Shown in pieces: positions 538 through 41,867 of a stretch of DNA of 64,000 nt. The notes beneath the pieces were generated by a model that searched no databases, had not been told where the DNA came from, and saw nothing but the letters and a program-made list of their open reading frames with translations. Origin of the DNA: Dehalococcoidia bacterium (lineage in GTDB: Bacteria > Chloroflexota > Dehalococcoidia > Plut-88900); the NCBI GenBank assembly GCA_965197645.1, contig OZ240219.1, positions 1,184,001 to 1,248,000 of the forward strand. The letters are read 5' to 3'. The number at the start of each line of letters is the position of its first letter. Positions within the stretch are counted from its first letter, which is position 1. Position numbers and translations under genes: made by a program.

Positions 538-1419
538 ATGGAGCTACGAGAGCTCAGGAGCTTTTGCATCGCGGCGCAGCTCAGAAGCATCTCCAAGGCG
601 GCGGACAAGCTGGACATCGGGCAGCCGACCGTCACCACCCACGTGAAGAACCTGGAGAAAGAGCTGGGCAAGACGCTTTTCGATAGGGTCAAGCGCCCTA
701 TACAGCTCACCCTGGCCGGACAAAAGCTGTTCGAGATGGCCGCTCCGCTGGTCGAGGGGATCGACGCCCTGGCTGCCAATACGTCCAAGGAGGAGATGGA
801 AGGCCCGGTCAGCATAGCCGCCACCCACGACATCATCCCCCATACGCTGCTGAGCGTGGTCCAGGCCTTCGAATCCAAGTATCCCCACGTGCTGCTGAGG
901 ATCCGGTCGGACCATCGGGCCGAGGTGTTGACCAGGGTGGCCAACCTGGAGGCGGACATCGGGATAGTCCCCGGCCCCGAGCTGGGCTCCGCCTTTGATT
1001 TCGAAGGGATGTTCGGCTACGAAAGGGTGTTGATCACCCCCGTAGGCCATCCGCTGCTGAAGACGCGGCTAACGTCCATCGACCAGATTGCCCAGTGGCC
1101 GTTGATCCTCATGGGCCCGCATACAACGACCCGGGAGATGCTGGAGTCGGAGTTCCGGCGCAGAGGACTGAGCTATGAGGTGGTGGTGGAGCTGGACAGC
1201 ATGGACATGATCAAGAGGTACGTCGCGCTGGGGATGGGAGTCTCGGTGGGGCCCAGGCTCGCCATAGACCCGGGGGACCAGAAGACCCTGGGTGTCGTAA
1301 GCCTGGCTACGCTGCTGCCGGTGGAGCAGGGGGGAGTGGTGACCCTTCAGGGGAGGACGTTGTCCACCCCGGCGATGAATTTCCTATCGGTAATGAGGAA
1401 GACGCTGTCCAACGCCTGA
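538..1419 (+). CDS. LysR family transcriptional regulator (CysB/CbbR-like)
   Basis: N-terminal HTH MELRELRSFCIAAQLRSISKAADKLDIGQPTVTTHVKNLEKELG..LFDR; 293 aa. Confidence 0.95.
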   Translation: MELRELRSFCIAAQLRSISKAADKLDIGQPTVTTHVKNLEKELGKTLFDRVKRPIQLTLAGQKLFEMAAPLVEGIDALAANTSKEEMEGPVSIAATHDIIPHTLLSVVQAFESKYPHVLLRIRSDHRAEVLTRVANLEADIGIVPGPELGSAFDFEGMFGYERVLITPVGHPLLKTRLTSIDQIAQWPLILMGPHTTTREMLESEFRRRGLSYEVVVELDSMDMIKRYVALGMGVSVGPRLAIDPGDQKTLGVVSLATLLPVEQGGVVTLQGRTLSTPAMNFLSVMRKTLSNA

Positions 1420-15217: not shown

Positions 15218-15742
15218 TCAGCTCTGCACGTTGACGGCGGCTGAGGCCAGGTTTACTCCCGCTATATCCTGAAAATCCTCATCGGCGAGACCCAGGTTGG
15301 CGACGGATAGAATGTAGCTTTCCCCGGCGGCGGTCTCCGATACCTGGAAGGTGAGTTCGGCAAAGATGGACGTAGGAGTGGGTGAGGTGGTGCTTCCGCG
15401 GCGGGCCAGAGCGTAGGTTAGGGTACCGGCAACGTTGTCCACCAGCTCGATGCCGACCAACGGGTCGGGACCGAAGAGGTTGCCGGCCTCGACCTTCACA
15501 AGGGTCAGTCCCTGGGGGTCAAAAGCGAAGTTCAGCTCACCGCCGCTGACGCCCCGGCCATCGGGATCGACCCTCACCTCAACCATTAGCTCATCCCCGG
15601 CTTCCACGGTGACCGATTCGGGTAGTACCTGAACGGATACGCCCCGGATGACATCGGTGTCCGAGTCCCGGACGCAGGCGATGAGCACCAGCAGGGCGCC
15701 GGCCAGCAGGAAGAGCCTGGGAGACAGTCTCGGAAGCTTCAT
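15218..15742 (-). CDS. Cohesin-domain lipoprotein
   Basis: Lipobox LIA-C, then a beta-sandwich pattern typical of cohesins: V.VEAGDE..VEV.V..GVSGGELNFAFDP..L..VEAGNLF..GTL..A.LTFQV. Confidence 0.8.
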   Translation of the reverse strand: MKLPRLSPRLFLLAGALLVLIACVRDSDTDVIRGVSVQVLPESVTVEAGDELMVEVRVDPDGRGVSGGELNFAFDPQGLTLVKVEAGNLFGPDPLVGIELVDNVAGTLTYALARRGSTTSPTPTSIFAELTFQVSETAAGESYILSVANLGLADEDFQDIAGVNLASAAVNVQS

Positions 15743-15746
15743 GGAG

Positions 15747-17141
15747 TTAAAGCTCGGCCCCCAGCATAGCCAGGTCCAGGTAGTTGATCACCCCGTCCCC
15801 GTTCAAATCGATCTCCGCTGCGTAACCCGAGTCTCCGGACCCAGTGCCGTAGGCCCCTTGAAGCACGGCTAGATCATCGCGGTCCACCGAGCCGTCGCGG
15901 TTTAGGTCACCGGTGATGATGGTTTCCGGCGTGTCCGGGACCACCGGGGTGGGCGTGCGCGCTCCCAGGGGCACCAGGGTCGGTATGGGAGTAGCCGTCG
16001 CTAGGTCTTCCACCACCTCTCGCTCGGGGAGTAGGGGCAAGCCGATGCTGGACCGCCACCGATTGTCCAGGCCGACCCGATCGAAGCCGTAGACCTGGAC
16101 CAATACGTCGTCCATATTCCCATAGCCGTCCCTGAAAGTCCTGAGCAGCTCGGCCATCTTTCCAGGGCCGTACTCGTCGATCATAAACTCTACGATCGCC
16201 CGAGCCTGGCCATAGAAGAGGATGGTCTCGTCGGGGGTGCCGGGCTGGTTGTTCATGCCTGTGATGGGAAGCAGGCGACCGGTCCTGACGTTTTCCAGGA
16301 GAGCAAGGTCGTAGGAGTAGCTGGGCTCCAGGTTACCGTACTCGGCCAGTCCTTCGTTGAGCCAGTCGGGCACCCGGCGACCGGGGCCCTCGGCGGCCTG
16401 GGCAACCAGCAGATGGGTGACCTCATGGGAGGTAGTGCCGCGGATTTGGGAAGTGAAGCCCATAATCAGAAGGATTCCCTCGCTGCCGTAGGCCTGTCCC
16501 AGCGTCACGAGGCCGCTCTGCGCCGTGTTGCTGGTAAAGGGAAGGGCCGCCTGCATCTGCAGCGGATTGTTGTATATCATTATCCTGATCGGATCGGTCA
16601 ACTCGGTCTGGAGCACGGCGCCCATTCGGCTGAGGGTCTCTATGGAGGTGTCCAGAATCGTCTGGGCCCGGGTGTTGGTTGGCCCGTAGTAGTAGGTGGA
16701 GACCAAGCCTTCTGTCAGGACCTCCCATTCGAACCGGGTGTCCAGGTAGATGAACTCGACGGGATCGGTCTCTACCCGGTTGCCTTCCGCGTCCTGGAAA
16801 ATCCATCGGTATTCGAATCCAGCGCCGTTGGGTATGAACAGGCTCCCTGAGCCGCCCCGGGTCTCCAGGATGTACTCCGCCCTCATCGGGTCGCCTTCTA
16901 TCAGGGTGGCTGGTTCATTGCGGAGGATCTCCCTTCCGATGATCCCAAAGGAGATGGTGACGCTCTCCACGGGCCGGTCGCTGGCAAACTCTACGTAGAA
17001 GGACAGGGTTTCGGGGAAATTGATCTCGTGGCGAACGTCCGCCTCGGTTATCCACTCGTCAGCACTCGTCGGCGCTGCGGCGGTGGCGAAGATCAGTGCT
17101 GCGAGGACGGACACAGCTATTGTGGATACTAAGCGAGACAT
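15747..17141 (-). CDS. Secreted peptidase MA-like zinc metallopeptidase with C-terminal dockerin
   Basis: Signal peptide; HEVTH plus WLNEGLAEY (gluzincin); Pro/Thr linker; two Ca-loop repeats GDLNRDGSVDRDDL and IDLNGDGVINYLDL. Confidence 0.88.
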   Translation of the reverse strand: MSRLVSTIAVSVLAALIFATAAAPTSADEWITEADVRHEINFPETLSFYVEFASDRPVESVTISFGIIGREILRNEPATLIEGDPMRAEYILETRGGSGSLFIPNGAGFEYRWIFQDAEGNRVETDPVEFIYLDTRFEWEVLTEGLVSTYYYGPTNTRAQTILDTSIETLSRMGAVLQTELTDPIRIMIYNNPLQMQAALPFTSNTAQSGLVTLGQAYGSEGILLIMGFTSQIRGTTSHEVTHLLVAQAAEGPGRRVPDWLNEGLAEYGNLEPSYSYDLALLENVRTGRLLPITGMNNQPGTPDETILFYGQARAIVEFMIDEYGPGKMAELLRTFRDGYGNMDDVLVQVYGFDRVGLDNRWRSSIGLPLLPEREVVEDLATATPIPTLVPLGARTPTPVVPDTPETIITGDLNRDGSVDRDDLAVLQGAYGTGSGDSGYAAEIDLNGDGVINYLDLAMLGAEL

Positions 17142-17201
17142 CTAGCTTGGCGAAACTGGGCGCGTTGACACCAGAATCCTATCACGATGAGGGAAGGGGA
17201 A

Positions 17202-18605
17202 TCATTCCTCAGACTCGGGCAGCCTGAACCCGCCGGCCCCTTCCACAGCGAAATAATCCAGCATGGCTATACCCAGGCGGGCGGCGTTGCCCAACAGGTC
17301 CTGGTCTATGTGCTCCAAGGTGTCCTCGGGGGTGTGGATGCGAGAGAGATCTGTGCCTGCGAAGTACATGGCTGGGATTCCGACCGCCAGAAACACGGCG
17401 TGATCACTGGCAAGACCGCGGGGTTGCTGCCCTTCGTAGGCGTCCAGCCCCAGGTCCGTCGCCAAGGTAAGGCCCTGAGCCACCAGCCCGGGATCTCCTC
17501 CCAGCTGAAGCTCCCCCGAGCCTACGGCATCAAAGTTCAGCATCGCCCTGATGCTGGACCTCCCGCCCAGTGGAGATAGGGAATTTACCCAGTTCGCACT
17601 GCCCAGCAGGCCGATCTCCTCCGAGCCGAAGGCGATGAAGTGGATGGAGTAGGGGATGGTATCCACCTTTGTGGTCTCCTGGGCCAGGGCCAACAGTATA
17701 CCAATGCCCGAGCCATTATCGTTGGCGCCGTCCACGTCCGCTACCGTGTCCATGTGAGCGCCCACGACGACTGTGTTGAACCCGGAGACTATCCTGGAGG
17801 CCACCACGTTTCGGCTGGGGGTCGGGAAGCGGAGCAGCCTGACGTCGAGGACCACATCCCCCTCTTCAAGCATCTCCACCAGACGCTCTCCGTCAGCCCG
17901 GGAGATGGTCAACGATGGGATCTCGGCGGGAGAAGAGAGGGTGGCGTACAGCTCCGCCTCTTCGTTGTTGTAGATGATGGCCGCCGAGGCGCCGGCGTTC
18001 TGCGCGTTCTGGACCTTGTCCTCAAAGAACAGGACTCCCCTCTGTATCAACGCGATCTTCCCTTCGAGGCCTTCTTCGGGGTAGGCTTCCGGCTCGCCAA
18101 AGCCGACGTGGACTATCGAAGCGGTGGTCTCTCCCGTGCCGCTCAGATGGACGAAACGAGACACGATGGTCTCTTCCACCGGGCTGGAGATGGTGATAAA
18201 AGGCTCAGTCGTATCGTACCTCTGGACCGTGAACTCCTGTATCTCGATGTCGTAGCCCAGAGCGGTTAGCTCGGCAGCTATGAAGTCGGCGGCAGCCTCT
18301 TCCTGGGCGGAGGCGGACTCCCTTGCGCCCAGCGCCTCCACGAATCGCTGAGTATAGGAGTAGGCTAATTCACCCAGGTTATCGGAGGGGCTGAATATGG
18401 GGTCTGTAGGCGTGGGTTCGGGCGTGGCCTGAGGCGTCGGGACGGGAGTAAAGGTAGGAGAGGGTGTGTCGGCGGAAGGAACCTCCGTAGCTTGTACGGC
18501 GGCCTCTCCCGTCGGCGTTGGAGTATCAGCCGAGTCCCGTATCCTACAGGCCGAGCCTATGACCAGGAGAACCAGGACTATGTATATCAGGTGATGCTTC
18601 TTCAA
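17202..18605 (-). CDS. M28 aminopeptidase with PA domain, lipoprotein
   Basis: Lipobox GSA-C, PT-rich linker, PA domain (GKIALIQRG..F.DKV.NA..AGA), GAHMD, GANDNGSG, SEEIGLLGS, SDH, IHT.ED. Confidence 0.93.
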   Translation of the reverse strand: MKKHHLIYIVLVLLVIGSACRIRDSADTPTPTGEAAVQATEVPSADTPSPTFTPVPTPQATPEPTPTDPIFSPSDNLGELAYSYTQRFVEALGARESASAQEEAAADFIAAELTALGYDIEIQEFTVQRYDTTEPFITISSPVEETIVSRFVHLSGTGETTASIVHVGFGEPEAYPEEGLEGKIALIQRGVLFFEDKVQNAQNAGASAAIIYNNEEAELYATLSSPAEIPSLTISRADGERLVEMLEEGDVVLDVRLLRFPTPSRNVVASRIVSGFNTVVVGAHMDTVADVDGANDNGSGIGILLALAQETTKVDTIPYSIHFIAFGSEEIGLLGSANWVNSLSPLGGRSSIRAMLNFDAVGSGELQLGGDPGLVAQGLTLATDLGLDAYEGQQPRGLASDHAVFLAVGIPAMYFAGTDLSRIHTPEDTLEHIDQDLLGNAARLGIAMLDYFAVEGAGGFRLPESEE

Positions 18606-18712
18606 AGGACTTTTACGTGGGGCGCAGTCGTACTACGCCGCGATGGGTTGGTACATTGTAAAACGGGGGAACGGGTTAAAGGTTGCCGTAGCGAGAAACG
18701 GAGGGTTGGGCT

Positions 18713-19150
18713 CTATCTCTTTTTTGGTTTGGCAGGACCTCGCTGAGACTTTCGCTCGGCGCCCGCGTATTTCTCTTCGGGGAAGAGGTCCTCGCCAGGC
18801 CCGCCGCCCTCGCCTAGGGCGCTGCTAACGGCCTCTTCTCCCTCTTCCATCCTGCGAAGAAACTCTTCGCTCACGAAGAACATTCAGATGCAAAATCCGT
18901 CCCGAGCTATGTCCTCGTGGTGCCTTTCGCAAGGGCATATCTTCATGCGATCCCGGTCCGGGTCGCCCTCCACGATCATTCAGGGACAGTACCGGTATCC
19001 GTGCTTTACCTCGTTCTTCGCCAGGCCCTTCTGTACCTCGTCCACGATCTCCGGGTCCGAGTAGAACTTGTAACCGCTCTTCTGAACGTACTTTTCGGAC
19101 ATTTTGACGGCACCGGCTAAGGCTTGTTCGAAGGTCTTCTGTTTCTTCAA
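18713..19150 (-). CDS. Ferredoxin:thioredoxin reductase catalytic subunit-like protein, predicted selenoprotein with two Sec (not in ORF track)
   Basis: GGAGA SD plus TTG start; MKKQKTFEQALAGAVKMSEKYVQKSGYKFYSDPEIVDEVQKGLAKNEVKHGYRYCP(U)MIVEGDPDRDRMKICPCERHHEDIARDGFCI(U)MFFVSEEFLRRMEE...PKKR*; TGA at 18982-18980 and 18886-18884; 145 aa on read-through. Confidence 0.88.
18854..18870 (-). promoter_or_regulatory. Candidate bacterial SECIS hairpin 2
   Basis: GCGAAGA-GTT-TCTTCGC, a perfect 7-bp stem, begins 13 nt after the second in-frame UGA; the loop starts with G. Confidence 0.65.
18947..18966 (-). promoter_or_regulatory. Candidate bacterial SECIS hairpin 1
   Basis: GCGA-CCCG-GAC-CGGG-A-TCGC begins 13 nt after the first in-frame UGA; the loop starts with G. 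Confidence 0.65.
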
Positions 19151-19299
19151 TCGGCTCTCCTAGCTGGCTGTGAGGGGTCATAGTTAGTATAACATAGGAG
19201 GTTGTATCCAATCGGCTCGATAGCATGGCGTTGATGTGGAGGTTATAATCGCATCTGGCGTCCCGGCCTGCACGCCATCTTTAACAGACTAATGAAATA

Positions 19300-19455
19300 T
19301 GGGGTGTGCAGAGGGCCGAAGCCCATTTATTGGGAGTGCCTGCCGGGGGCCGGGAGTCTGAGATCCTGCCCTGAGCTCGCTTAAGGGGTGTCCCTCAGAA
19401 ATGATTTTCTGTACCCTCCTGGCTAGGAAGGGGGCCAGGGGGATGGGGTCGAAAG
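19300..19455 (+). repeat. Intergenic repeat family A, copy with 24-nt insert
   Basis: GGGGTGTGCAGAGGG..GAAGCCC...GGGAGTCTGAG[ATCCTGCCCTGAGCTCGCTTAAGG]GGTGTCCCTCAGA...AGGAAGGGGGCCAGGGGGATGG. Confidence 0.8.
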
Positions 19456-19491
19456 AGGTTTATTAGCACCTTACTGAATCATGACTGAATC

Positions 19492-20262
19492 ATGGCCAGA
19501 AACGTTATAGAACAGTTCGGCGAACATGCCGACGACTACTACCGCAGCAAGTACCATTCCCAGGGCGGCGACCTCAACAAGCTGGTCGAACTGGCGTCTC
19601 CAGAGACCCACGAGACGGCCCTGGACATGGCTACGGGCGCCGGCCATACCGCTTTCGCCGTGGCGAAGCGGGCCGGACGGGTCATAGCAAGCGACTTGAC
19701 GGCGCCGATGATCCAACGAGCACGAAAGGCCGCCCACGATGAGGGCATCACCAACGTCGAGTTCCTGCTGTGCGACGCCCACGCCATCCCCTACTCCGAC
19801 GAGACCCTGGATATCGTGACCTGCCGTGCGGCGCCCCACCACTTCAAAGACGTCCGCCTGTTTGTCAGAGAGGCGTGGCGAGTGACCAGGCCGGGAGGCC
19901 GCATGGTCGTCATCGATGGAGCGGCGCCCGAGGACCCGGGCCTGCACGAGTACCTGGACCACCTGGAGGTGGTACGAGACCCGAGTCACAACCGCCGTCT
20001 ATCCCTTTCCGAATGGAGGGACGCGTTCCGAGACGCAGGCTTCCAGCTGGACGTCAGCTATCTGGAGGACGATATCTACGACTTCGATGACTGGGTGATT
20101 CGCTCCGGCGTAACTCCGAAGACCCGCGGGCTCTTGGAAGGAATGATTATCGACGCCACCCCCGAGCAGCACCGCTACTTCCGGTTCGATATCCAGGACG
20201 GGAAGGTGATAAGCTTGCGAAACGATCGGGCGGTGGTGCTCGGGCGCAAGCCCAGACCGTAA
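19492..20262 (+). CDS. Class I SAM-dependent methyltransferase (UbiE/YafE-like)
   Basis: [29 protein letters not shown]. Confidence 0.9.
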
Positions 20263-22178: not shown

Positions 22179-22270
22179 GGAGGGATCGCATAGTGGCCTA
22201 GTGCGGGCGCCTGCTAAGCGCTTATCCGGGGAGACTTGGATCGTGGGTTCGAATCCCACTCCCTCCGCCA
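22179..22270 (+). tRNA. tRNA-Ser(GCT)
   Basis: GGAGGGA/TCCCTCC acceptor stem, anticodon loop CT-GCT-AA, long variable arm, GTTCGAATC T-loop, encoded CCA. Confidence 0.95.
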
Positions 22271-41499: not shown

Positions 41500-41662
41500 G
41501 TTGAAAAACTCTTTCGACCATCCCCCTGGCCCCCTTCTTGGCGAAGGGGGGAAGAAATCGTATCTGAGGGACACCCCTTCGGCGGGCTCAGGGCAGGCTC
41601 TCAGACTCCCGGCCCCCTCGTGCAGTCCCGTAAAACGAGCTTCGCCCCTCTGTACCCCCCTT
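41500..41662 (-). repeat. Intergenic repeat family A, copy with 24-nt insert
   Basis: Reverse complement reads GGGAGTCTGAG[AGCCTGCCCTGAGCCCGCCGAAGG]GGTGTCCCTCAGA...GGGGGCCAGGGGGATGGTCGAAAG. Confidence 0.8.
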
Positions 41663-41867
41663 GTTTCATCAGTCTGCTGGGGGTTGCGGGATGCAGAACG
41701 GCCCAGATTATAACATGGCGGCTTGAGGGATGTGCTTCCGGCTACGATACCGGCCGAGGACGGGAAGAGGAGCCGGCGCGCAAGGTATTTGAGACAAACC
41801 CGAAAGAATAGATTGGACACCGGCTTCGGAGAGAGCGGGAGGTCGATCGGCCGTTTACTGGAGGCGG

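What the first reader, a model, noticed from the sequence alone, without database searches (positions are those of the whole stretch)
18713..19150. Hidden ferredoxin:thioredoxin reductase-like gene with two in-frame UGA codons at the redox-active pair: candidate diselenide enzyme
Seen: a minus-strand frame absent from the ORF track starts at TTG 19150 after a GGAGA SD. It reads ...GLAKNEVKHGYRYCP*MIVEGDPDRDRMKICPCERHHEDIARDGFCI*MFFV... and ends at TAG 18713. Both stars are TGA (codons 57 and 89). Established: the FTR catalytic subunit has CPC...CPC...CHC; four Cys ligate a [4Fe-4S] cluster, and the last Cys of the first and third motifs form the active-site disulfide. Here all four ligand Cys are ordinary TGT/TGC codons and exactly the two disulfide positions are TGA. 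Inference: both are read as selenocysteine, giving a Se-Se active site next to an Fe-S cluster. The His of CHC is replaced by Ile, which might be tolerated given the lower pKa of Sec. Two random nonsense mutations landing on just these two codons is very unlikely. FTR-like selenoproteins have to my recollection been reported from metagenomes, so whether the double-Sec form in this lineage is new needs checking. No variable subunit, thioredoxin or ferredoxin gene lies nearby, and there is a ~45-aa low-complexity C-terminal tail.
Basis: partly seen in the sequence, partly recalled or inferred. Interest (0 to 1): 0.95.

Follow-up and report, generated by a model that had tools for sequence, protein, structure and literature searches.

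The report
Known double-selenocysteine FtrB reductase gene
This is a real gene for a small iron-sulfur disulfide reductase whose two active-site cysteines are both replaced by selenocysteine, but the protein family has been in print since 2008 and already has a curated database model.

Summary
A minus-strand frame runs from TTG 19150 to TAG 18713-18715. It has two in-frame TGAs, at codons 57 and 89. It scores 212.2 bits (cut-off 160) on the NCBIfam equivalog NF041072, "FtrB family double-selenoprotein", and 81.8 bits on Pfam FeThRed_B.

The genome is a 3.2-Mb single-contig Dehalococcoidia. It has tRNA-Sec(UCA), selA, selB and a TGA-containing selD. Both TGAs are kept in all 18 distinct nucleotide versions found in relatives. 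Purifying selection continues past each TGA (pN/pS 0.24, 0.14, 0.33). A hairpin starts 17 nt from each UGA, and third codon positions are unusually invariant there. Contigs from two other studies carry both TGAs unchanged.

Zhang & Gladyshev 2008 (PMC2398784) reported an FTR selenoprotein with Sec at both redox-active positions. A 2026 review lists NF041072 with 2 Sec.

The added value is modest. This genome has a canonical thioredoxin but no TrxB homologue and no FTR variable subunit. The enzyme may therefore be its main thioredoxin reductase. No biochemical study of the family was found.

The parts
18713..19150 (-). CDS of the FtrB-family double-selenoprotein, 145 aa plus a TAG stop. The start is TTG 19150.
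   Evidence: NF041072 scores 212.2 bits against a cut-off of 160, with residues 3-124 matching model positions 1-121. Pfam FeThRed_B scores 81.8 bits. A TTG or GTG start with an upstream AAGGAGGA or GGAG motif is conserved in 12 relatives.
19156..19161 (-). Shine-Dalgarno AGGAGA, 5 nt upstream of the TTG start.
   Evidence: An equivalent AAGGAGGA is seen in relatives.
18980..18982 (-). UGA 1 = Sec57 (CPU). This is the column of the exposed redox-active Cys in the first CPC motif.
   Evidence: The column is invariant Cys/Sec in the 22-sequence alignment. It is unchanged in contigs of runs X3 and X6 and in an RNA-library contig of X11.
18884..18886 (-). UGA 2 = Sec89 (CIU). This is the column of the second redox-active Cys (third motif, CHC/CYC in Cys forms).
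   Evidence: It is unchanged in contigs of X3 and X6.
18947..18966 (-). Candidate SECIS 1 hairpin GCGACCCGGACCGGGAUCGC. It starts at nt 17 counted from the U of UGA 1, has a G-first apical loop, and encodes GDPDRDR.
   Evidence: Third positions are invariant in 5 of 11 codons here, against 3 of 40 before UGA 1. The same GCGAUCC...GGAUCGC stem follows the single UGA of L041/L042.
18854..18870 (-). Candidate SECIS 2 hairpin GCGAAGA-GUU-UCUUCGC. It starts at nt 17 from the U of UGA 2 and encodes SEEFLR.
   Evidence: In the f1 family 8 of 10 third positions are invariant, against 2 of 10 just downstream. L033 keeps a hairpin with a different stem sequence. The stretch 18853-18886 has contig depth 380-640 against 5-9 in the flanks in two DNA runs.
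18986..18988 (-). Cys55 (TGT), inferred [4Fe-4S] ligand.
   Evidence: Invariant column. The ligand role is inferred from FTR structures and is recalled, not tested.
18929..18937 (-). Cys72-Pro73-Cys74 (TGC CCT TGC), inferred [4Fe-4S] ligands.
   Evidence: Invariant columns. The CPC aligns with that of 4tpu and 7pwe.
18890..18892 (-). Cys87 (TGC), inferred [4Fe-4S] ligand.
   Evidence: Invariant column.
18716..18832 (-). C-terminal tail, residues about 107-145. It is acidic and Gly-rich, then basic, and holds the conserved G-E-x-L-F-P motif. It is predicted disordered.
   Evidence: pLDDT <50 for 113-122 and 124-145.

Best explanation
The frame 19150-18713 (-) is an intact, expressed-type gene for a member of the catalogued 'FtrB family double-selenoprotein' (NCBIfam NF041072). 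It is a stand-alone, roughly 110-residue FTR/FDR-type catalytic domain with a disordered tail. Both UGA codons are decoded as selenocysteine by SelB and tRNA-Sec, each directed by its own hairpin in the coding sequence just downstream. Four ordinary cysteines (C55, C72, C74, C87) bind a [4Fe-4S] cluster. Sec57 and Sec89 occupy the two redox-active positions beside it. The following steps are inferred, not shown. Reduced ferredoxin delivers single electrons through the cluster to a Sec57-Sec89 diselenide. The exposed Sec57 selenolate then attacks a substrate disulfide through a selenenylsulfide intermediate, while Sec89 interacts with the cluster iron. The most likely substrate is the genome's single canonical thioredoxin, because this genome has no TrxB-type reductase.
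For: Family: NF041072 scores 212.2 bits over a cut-off of 160, full length. FeThRed_B scores 81.8 bits. By sequence the best PDB matches are 4tpu (6.6e-14) and 7pwe (2.2e-13), with all three Cys motifs aligned. The AF2 model has pLDDT 86-97 over residues 11-100. Foldseek gives probability 1.00 to 7pwe, 4tpu, 1dj7 and 2pu9.

Sec machinery in the same genome: tRNA-SeC with anticodon tca (66.4 bits); selB 346.8 bits; selA 547.7 bits; selD 379.7 bits with its own in-frame TGA. TGA is an ordinary stop here, ending 22 of 63 frames of at least 250 codons in the window.

Conservation: 13 of 41 related genomes score over the cut-off, and all 13 have '2 TGA'. In total 28 loci give 18 distinct nucleotide sequences, all CPU...CPC...CIU. 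pN/pS is 0.243 before UGA1, 0.138 between the UGAs and 0.331 in the 20 codons after UGA2. The tail motif is conserved. The double-Sec rows form one group with 100/99 support (22 of 49 rows).

Cys/Sec alternation at both columns: U/C in L041 and L042; C/U in L063, L040 and P0011; C/C in many.

SECIS: hairpins start at nt 17 after each UGA with a G-first loop. Excess third-position invariance is seen there.

Not an assembly error: contigs of runs X3 and X6 (two other studies) cover both TGAs with no difference. RNA-library contigs cover 18918-19145 (X11) and 19005-19170 (X12).

Function: there is one canonical thioredoxin (126.4 bits, WCGPC). The best TrxB score is 73 bits against a cut-off of 343, and the two best hits, which were the only ones scanned, are sarcosine-oxidase-alpha-like proteins. 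There is only one FeThRed_B gene and no FeThRed_A.

Prior description.
Against: There is no protein-level evidence of Se incorporation here or, in the papers I could search, anywhere for this family.

The window's own hairpins are not thermodynamically distinguished from shuffles (z -0.66 and -0.86 for 37-nt pieces; +0.55 for the 68-nt piece after UGA2). RNAalifold found only 1 compensatory pair for SECIS1 and 0 for SECIS2. Rfam gave only chance-level matches (4 hits, all far below gathering scores).

The RNA evidence is contigs from RNA libraries that may contain DNA.

The thioredoxin-reductase role is weakened by relatives. Ten of 11 genomes of the same family that carry the double-Sec gene also have a TrxB-like gene at E <= 1e-30, so the enzyme is not generally a TrxB replacement.

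No conserved redox partner lies beside it. Neighbours differ between clades: M28 peptidase and methyltransferase here, E2 acyltransferase, metallopeptidase and P450 elsewhere.

The catalytic His of plant-type CHC is absent (Ile). A diselenide would have a very low potential (general chemistry, recalled), so the resting state might be a selenolate pair or Fe-Se bonded rather than Se-Se.
Confidence: 0.9

Rival explanations
1. It is a genuine double-Sec FtrB enzyme, but thioredoxin is not its substrate. It would reduce another disulfide, persulfide or selenium species, such as a glutaredoxin-like protein or a low-molecular-weight disulfide, as the 'ferredoxin:disulfide reductase' naming of its closest solved relatives suggests.
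For: The closest structures are deposited as ferredoxin-dependent disulfide reductases fused to rubredoxin (4tpu) or glutaredoxin (7pwe), not as thioredoxin reductases. The single-Sec relative L041/L042 is fused to two glutaredoxin-like CxxC/CxxR domains. Most double-Sec carriers in the family also keep a TrxB-like gene. No thioredoxin gene lies next to it.
Against: This genome has a canonical thioredoxin and no TrxB-type reductase, so some other enzyme must reduce it. This is the only FeThRed_B gene. Plant-type FTRs with the same fold do bind thioredoxins (PDB titles).
Confidence: 0.3
2. It is a pseudogene: an FtrB gene inactivated by two nonsense mutations.
For: Under table 11 the frame is broken into 56-aa pieces. 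One relative (L034) does look decayed, with CSC instead of CPC and the frame lost after ERHH.
Against: The same two TGAs occur in 18 distinct nucleotide sequences across at least two families. pN/pS is 0.14-0.33 after the first and second TGA. The curated model expects exactly these two Sec. The Sec machinery is present.
Confidence: 0.01
3. UGA is read here as a standard amino acid (Trp or Gly, as in codes 4 or 25), or the TGAs are sequencing errors for TGC/TGG.
For: Public metagenome gene calls of relatives carry W at both sites (P0002-P0005 and P0007-P0010), meaning they were called under a TGA=W code.
Against: TGA terminates 22 of 63 long frames in the window. selA and selB have no internal stops. 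The relative L021 ends its own FtrB gene with TGA. Independent contigs from two other studies keep both TGAs. W at two invariant Cys columns next to an Fe-S site would abolish the redox pair.
Confidence: 0.01

Closest known systems
NCBIfam NF041072 'FtrB family double-selenoprotein' (equivalog). It is listed in the 2026 review PMC13188914 as ferredoxin-thioredoxin reductase, CxU, 2 Sec.
   Same: The match is full length and above the curated cut-off (212.2 vs 160 bits). There are two Sec at the CxU positions. The model covers the tail motif up to residue 124.
   Different: Nothing found. This gene is a member. I could not see the model's seed members or their taxa.
GOS metagenome FTR selenoprotein read with two predicted Sec (Zhang & Gladyshev 2008, PMC2398784; passages read).
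   Same: [quoted passage not shown]
   Different: That was a single shotgun read without genome context. Here there is a complete gene in a closed-looking genome with Sec machinery.
Ferredoxin:disulfide reductases (FDR): Methanosarcina acetivorans 4TPU and the Desulfotalea psychrophila glutaredoxin-FDR fusion 7PWE.
   Same: These are the best sequence and fold matches. They have the same six Cys-column pattern. They have no variable subunit. Rubredoxin-fused Cys forms are common in other Dehalococcoidia.
   Different: Those are all-Cys enzymes with a CYC third motif and a fused rubredoxin or glutaredoxin domain. This one has Sec at two positions, CIU, no fused redox domain and a disordered tail.
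Plant/cyanobacterial ferredoxin:thioredoxin reductase catalytic chain (1DJ7, 2PU9, 7BZK).
   Same: It has the same Pfam family and fold. The CPC...CPC...CHC architecture has four cluster ligands and a redox-active pair (mechanism recalled; Dai et al. 2007 is cited in PMC2398784).
   Different: Sequence similarity is only E 1e-4 to 1e-5. There is no variable subunit gene in this genome. His is replaced by Ile, and the redox pair is Sec/Sec.
SelL, a eukaryotic UxxU diselenide selenoprotein (Shchedrina et al. 2007; seen only in the reference list of PMC2398784, otherwise recalled).
   Same: It has two Sec positioned to form an intramolecular diselenide in a redox motif.
   Different: It is a thioredoxin-fold protein with no Fe-S cluster and eukaryotic SECIS. 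Its Sec residues are 3 apart in sequence rather than 32.

Membership tests
NCBIfam NF041072 FtrB_double_U | Whole-protein score above the curated equivalog cut-off, full-length alignment. | tested here: met
   212.2 bits against 160. Residues 3-124 match model positions 1-121 of 121. The six-frame genome search gave 202 bits with '2 TGA'.
NCBIfam NF041072 FtrB_double_U | Two in-frame UGA codons at the two redox-active Cys columns. | tested here: met
   TGA at codons 57 and 89. Both columns are invariant Cys/Sec in a 22-sequence alignment and align with the CPC and CYC cysteines of 4tpu/7pwe.
NCBIfam NF041072 FtrB_double_U | The host genome can decode UGA as Sec (tRNA-Sec, SelA, SelB, SelD). 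| tested here: met
   All four are over the curated cut-offs, and ARAGORN calls tRNA-SeC (tca).
NCBIfam NF041072 FtrB_double_U | A bacterial SECIS hairpin downstream of each UGA. | tested here: inconclusive
   Hairpins start at nt 17 after each UGA with a G-first loop, with excess third-position invariance. However, z-scores are weak, there is 1 or 0 compensatory pairs, and no Rfam model matches.
NCBIfam NF041072 FtrB_double_U | Selenium actually incorporated at both sites. | not testable with these tools
   This needs 75Se labelling or peptide mass spectrometry.
Pfam PF02943 FeThRed_B (FTR catalytic chain fold) | HMM match over the gathering score, and the fold. | tested here: met
   81.8 bits against 22. 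Foldseek probability is 1.00 to 7pwe, 4tpu, 1dj7 and 2pu9.
Classical heterodimeric ferredoxin:thioredoxin reductase (plant/cyanobacterial type) | Variable subunit (PF02941 FeThRed_A) present. | tested here: not met
   0 matches in the own genome at E <= 0.01. The control Synechococcus elongatus is positive.
Classical heterodimeric ferredoxin:thioredoxin reductase (plant/cyanobacterial type) | CHC third motif with the catalytic His. | tested here: not met
   The motif is CIU here and in all 18 distinct double-Sec sequences.
Ferredoxin:disulfide reductase (FDR; 4TPU/7PWE type) | Closest by sequence and structure, and independent of a variable subunit. | tested here: met
Ferredoxin:disulfide reductase (FDR; 4TPU/7PWE type) | Fused rubredoxin or glutaredoxin domain. 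| tested here: not met
   The only Pfam domain is FeThRed_B at residues 15-106. The tail is disordered. Cys relatives L035, L036 and L063 do carry the rubredoxin-type CxxC...CPxC end.
Ferredoxin:disulfide reductase (FDR; 4TPU/7PWE type) | [4Fe-4S] cluster and ferredoxin-dependent disulfide reduction. | not testable with these tools
   Inferred from four invariant Cys columns. It needs spectroscopy and assays.

The most novel reading that the evidence does not exclude
In this TrxB-less Dehalococcoidia genome, the stand-alone double-Sec FtrB would be the sole thioredoxin-reducing enzyme. It has no variable subunit and no rubredoxin or glutaredoxin domain. The whole thiol-redox network would then hang on ferredoxin and on selenium supply. 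Catalysis would proceed through a diselenide/Fe-Se-bonded [4Fe-4S] intermediate that has never been characterised in any enzyme. The tRNA-Sec gene sits about 150 nt downstream of that single thioredoxin gene, which would then hint at coupled expression.
Probability: 0.3. Interest if true: 0.6.

Novelty: already known. Interest (0 to 1): 0.25.

Why it matters
As a discovery it adds little. The double-Sec FTR-like family was predicted in 2008, is listed in the 2022 and 2026 reviews, and has a curated NCBI model that would name this gene automatically.

It still matters in three practical ways.

(1) Standard gene callers miss or mangle it. Table 11 gives two 56-aa fragments. Public metagenome calls either truncate the protein at a TGA or print W at both active-site positions. 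Catalogues built from such calls therefore misrepresent the family.

(2) The searches made here found no biochemical study of the family. A diselenide, or Se-Fe interaction, beside a [4Fe-4S] cluster would be a new piece of bioinorganic chemistry. This genome offers a clean context with one thioredoxin, no TrxB and one FtrB.

(3) All four Cys/Sec combinations exist among homologues. That gives a natural series for asking what each Sec contributes.

Tried and rejected
Rfam scan of 18400-19500 at E <= 10. It gave 4 chance-level eukaryotic snoRNA/lncRNA matches, all far below gathering scores. It is no help for SECIS.

Consensus folding of the two SECIS regions. The f1 sequences are too similar to show covariation. 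The L033 SECIS2 hairpin is offset by one base, so it counts as 'broken' in the fixed alignment. I therefore folded it alone.

Synteny search for a redox partner. Nothing is conserved between clades. The M28 peptidase downstream is conserved only within the f1 family (seen in the L021 read-through) and has no obvious link.

Strict anticorrelation between TrxB and FtrB_UU: rejected. Only G000 and G005 among the 12 f1 genomes lack a TrxB-like gene at E <= 1e-30.

Literature searches for the FDR biochemistry papers found nothing usable. What I say about the 4TPU/7PWE enzymes rests on PDB titles and recall. One search failed on a colon in a search term and was re-sent.

Supplementary Dataset S2 of PMC2398784 holds the GOS sequences. 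Supplements are closed, so I could not compare them with this gene.

The habitat label of the small-share RNA runs is not used as evidence.

The tree has only 81 columns and several very long branches (L064, L040, L045, L041). Only the monophyly of the double-Sec group is used. The placement of the single-Sec forms, and any order of Cys-to-Sec events, is not claimed.
Full report
**1. The observation**

On the minus strand a frame begins at TTG 19150, five bases after AGGAGA (19161-19156). It ends at TAG 18715-18713.

It contains two in-frame TGA codons, at 18982-18980 (codon 57) and 18886-18884 (codon 89). Read with TGA=U the product is 145 aa with the motifs C55-P-U57, C72-P-C74 and C87-I-U89. 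Under table 11 only two 56-aa fragments are listed, which is why an ORF track would not show the gene.

**2. What it is**

The translation matches Pfam FeThRed_B at 81.8 bits (gathering 22). More tellingly, it matches the NCBIfam equivalog NF041072, "FtrB family double-selenoprotein", at 212.2 bits against a curated cut-off of 160. That match covers model positions 1-121 of 121.

By sequence the nearest solved structures are the following:
- the rubredoxin-fused ferredoxin-dependent disulfide reductase of Methanosarcina acetivorans, 4TPU (E 6.6e-14);
- the glutaredoxin/FDR fusion of Desulfotalea psychrophila, 7PWE (E 2.2e-13);
- classical FTR catalytic chains, which are much more distant (E 1e-4 to 1e-5).

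In those alignments U57 and U89 fall on the last Cys of the first motif and on the last Cys of the third motif. The third motif is CYC in 4TPU/7PWE.

An AlphaFold2 model built from a 22-sequence alignment is confident over residues 11-100 (block pLDDT 86-97). It is disordered for 113-122 and 124-145. Foldseek returns 7PWE, 4TPU, 1DJ7 and 2PU9 at probability 1.00.

In the 22-sequence alignment the only invariant columns are G51, C55, P56, C/U57, C72, P73, C74, C87 and C/U89.

**3. Is UGA read as Sec?**

*Machinery.* The window lies in a 3.21-Mb single-contig genome (94.5% complete by markers). Titles of near-identical public records name it as a Dehalococcoidia/Chloroflexota MAG. The genome encodes:
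- a tRNA-SeC with anticodon tca (Rfam 66.4 bits; ARAGORN);
- selB at 346.8 bits;
- selA at 547.7 bits;
- selD at 379.7 bits, itself with one in-frame TGA.

TGA is otherwise a normal stop. It ends 22 of 63 stop-to-stop frames of at least 250 codons in the window.

*Conservation of the TGAs.* Among 41 genomes (own plus 40 relatives), 13 score over the NF041072 cut-off and all 13 show "2 TGA". These are all 12 genomes of the own family plus one genome of another family of the class.

A sample of 401 genomes of the phylum gave no further member over the cut-off (1 of 401, the own genome). A pattern scan of 185,579 species genomes gave 18 confirmed loci. Fifteen carry CPU...CPC...CIU, all from Chloroflexota/Dehalococcoidia records. 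Three are Cys forms from Undinarchaeota, Saccharibacteria and Nealsonbacteria records. That scan used only two peptide patterns, so it undercounts.

*Selection.* Together the 28 double-Sec loci give 18 distinct nucleotide sequences. Over 153 pairs, pN/pS is:
- 0.243 for the 40 codons before UGA1;
- 0.138 for the 31 codons between the UGAs;
- 0.331 for the 20 codons after UGA2.

The frame therefore stays under purifying selection past both UGAs. The tail motif G-E-x-L-F-P is also conserved.

*Cys/Sec alternation.* Homologues show every Cys/Sec combination at the two columns:
- U/C: L041 and L042, fused to two glutaredoxin-like domains;
- C/U: L063, a rubredoxin-fused form where the conserved GLYVS follows the TGA; also L040, and P0011, which ends exactly at FCI;
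- C/C: the common rubredoxin-fused forms of other Dehalococcoidia.

In a tree of 49 distinct domain sequences the 22 double-Sec rows form one group with 100/99 support. The alignment is short and has long branches, so nothing more is claimed from it.

**4. SECIS**

After each UGA a hairpin starts at nucleotide 17, counted from the U. After UGA1 it is GCGACCCG-GAC-CGGG-A-UCGC. After UGA2 it is GCGAAGA-GUU-UCUUCGC. Each has G as the first loop base.

The support is mixed.

For:
- Third codon positions are invariant in 5 of 11 codons of the SECIS1 window. The comparison figures are 3 of 40 before UGA1 and 3 of 20 in the rest of the inter-UGA segment.
- Within the own family, 8 of 10 third positions are invariant in the SECIS2 window, against 2 of 10 just downstream.
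- The distant member L033 keeps a hairpin at SECIS2 with a different stem sequence. Its SECIS1 hairpin folds at z = -4.0.
- The single-Sec L041/L042 have the same GCGAUCC...GGAUCGC stem after their UGA.
- In contigs of two independent DNA runs, the 34 bases 18853-18886 (UGA2 plus hairpin) have summed depth 380-640 against 5-9 in the flanks. Many strains or species therefore share exactly this stretch.

Against:
- The window's own hairpins are not better than shuffles (z -0.66 and -0.86; +0.55 for the longer piece after UGA2).
- RNAalifold finds 1 and 0 compensatory pairs.
- Rfam has no matching model.

I rate the SECIS feature as plausible but not independently proven.

**5. Assembly error?**

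No. Besides the 18 independent sequences, contigs of runs X3 and X6 (two other studies) span 18857-19376 and 18857-19375. They show no difference at either TGA.

Contigs from two RNA libraries cover 18918-19145 (spanning UGA1; 2 differences elsewhere) and 19005-19170 (0 differences). The tool warns that such libraries can contain DNA, so this is only a weak hint of transcription.

**6. Function and mechanism**

*What is shown.* The family, the fold, six aligned Cys/Sec columns, the Sec machinery and the conservation are all shown.

*What is inferred from established FTR chemistry.* This part is recalled. Dai et al. 2007 is the source cited for the redox-active pair in PMC2398784.
- C55, C72, C74 and C87 hold a [4Fe-4S] cluster.
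- Sec57 and Sec89 form the redox pair next to it.
- Electrons arrive one at a time from ferredoxin.
- The exposed Sec57 attacks the substrate disulfide, while Sec89 interacts with a cluster iron in the one-electron intermediate.

*Genome context bearing on the substrate:*
- This is the only FeThRed_B gene in the genome.
- There is no variable subunit (FeThRed_A: 0 matches, cyanobacterial control positive).
- There is one canonical thioredoxin (126.4 bits, WCGPC).
- There is no TrxB. The best match scores 73 bits against a cut-off of 343. That hit and the other near-full-length hit, the only two I scanned, are sarcosine-oxidase-alpha-like flavoproteins. TrxB scores over the cut-off in 13 of 14 control genomes.

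So in this genome the double-Sec FtrB is the only recognisable candidate thioredoxin reductase.

*Against generalising.* Ten of the 11 other genomes of the family have a TrxB-like gene at E <= 1e-30 as well as the double-Sec gene. The nearest solved relatives are described as disulfide reductases fused to rubredoxin or glutaredoxin. No redox partner is conserved next to the gene.

I put about 0.6 on thioredoxin as the main substrate and 0.3 on another disulfide.

**7. What is known already**

Zhang & Gladyshev 2008 (PMC2398784; passages read) reported FTR as a new selenoprotein family from GOS reads. [quoted passage not shown] The 2026 review PMC13188914 lists it under NF041072 with 2 Sec (table passage). 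A 2026 database paper, PMC13326102, names Dehalococcoidia MAGs among the most selenoprotein-rich bacteria (passage).

Five searches returned no biochemical study of the Sec form. These covered combinations of ferredoxin thioredoxin reductase, FtrB, selenoprotein, selenocysteine, diselenide and Dehalococcoidia. Subscription-only papers are not covered.

**8. Verdict**

It is nevertheless an already catalogued selenoprotein family, and this gene would be named by the curated model.

Four things are modestly new here:
- the TrxB-less, single-thioredoxin context of this genome;
- the full set of Cys/Sec combinations among homologues;
- the coding-sequence constraint at the two hairpins;
- the way public gene calls misrender the protein, with W at both sites or truncated at a TGA.

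Interest is 0.25. Novelty: already known.

Noticed in passing
window 19270-19470 (also about 41505-41676, minus strand): The intergenic DNA upstream of the FtrB start holds a dispersed repeat of about 170 nt. It has 44 matches in the own genome at 69-88% identity, counting the query itself at 100%. This explains the very high contig depth at 19275-19400 in metagenome runs. Its nature (MITE/REP-like element or small RNA) was not examined.
   Followed up: partly
own genome G000:C1:214537-215070 (locus L094 / L001): The tRNA-Sec gene (214537-214631, -) lies about 150 nt downstream of the genome's only canonical thioredoxin gene (214780-215070, -; WCGPC), on the same strand. Co-transcription is possible but untested.
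   Followed up: no
L041 (G087) and L042 (G064): These are single-Sec FtrB-like proteins (CPU...CPC...CRC) fused to two glutaredoxin-like domains. The hairpin after their UGA has the same stem type as SECIS1 of the window gene. L042 also carries a TAG in the match.
   Followed up: partly
L063 (G302) and L040 (G032): These FtrB homologues have Sec only at the second redox position. L063 is CPC...CPC...CYU with a rubredoxin-type C-terminal domain. L040 is CPC...CPC...CHU.
   Followed up: partly
L034 (G035:C43): This looks like a decayed copy of the double-Sec gene. It has CPU, then CSC instead of CPC, and the frame is lost after ERHH. Only model positions 29-77 match. It could be a pseudogene or an assembly frameshift.
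   Followed up: no
proteins P0002-P0015 (public metagenome gene calls): Relatives at 52-61% identity are stored full-length with W at both Sec positions, meaning they were called under a TGA=W code. Others are truncated at YCP or FCI. P0008 alone stands for 196 member sequences. The family is therefore more widespread than the genome scans show, and it is mis-rendered in public protein sets.
   Followed up: partly
L033 (G040:C120), 931-1248 minus strand: In this other family the double-Sec gene lies next to a divergently oriented all-Cys FeThRed_B paralogue (70.5 bits).
   Followed up: no
window 15218-18605: Downstream on the same strand lie an M28 peptidase with a PA domain, a peptidase-MA protein with a dockerin domain, and a cohesin-domain protein. 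A cohesin-dockerin pair is unusual in Dehalococcoidia.
   Followed up: no
window 22179-22270: tRNA-Ser (gct), + strand. It also gave a sub-threshold tRNA-Sec model match of 42.1 bits.
   Followed up: yes
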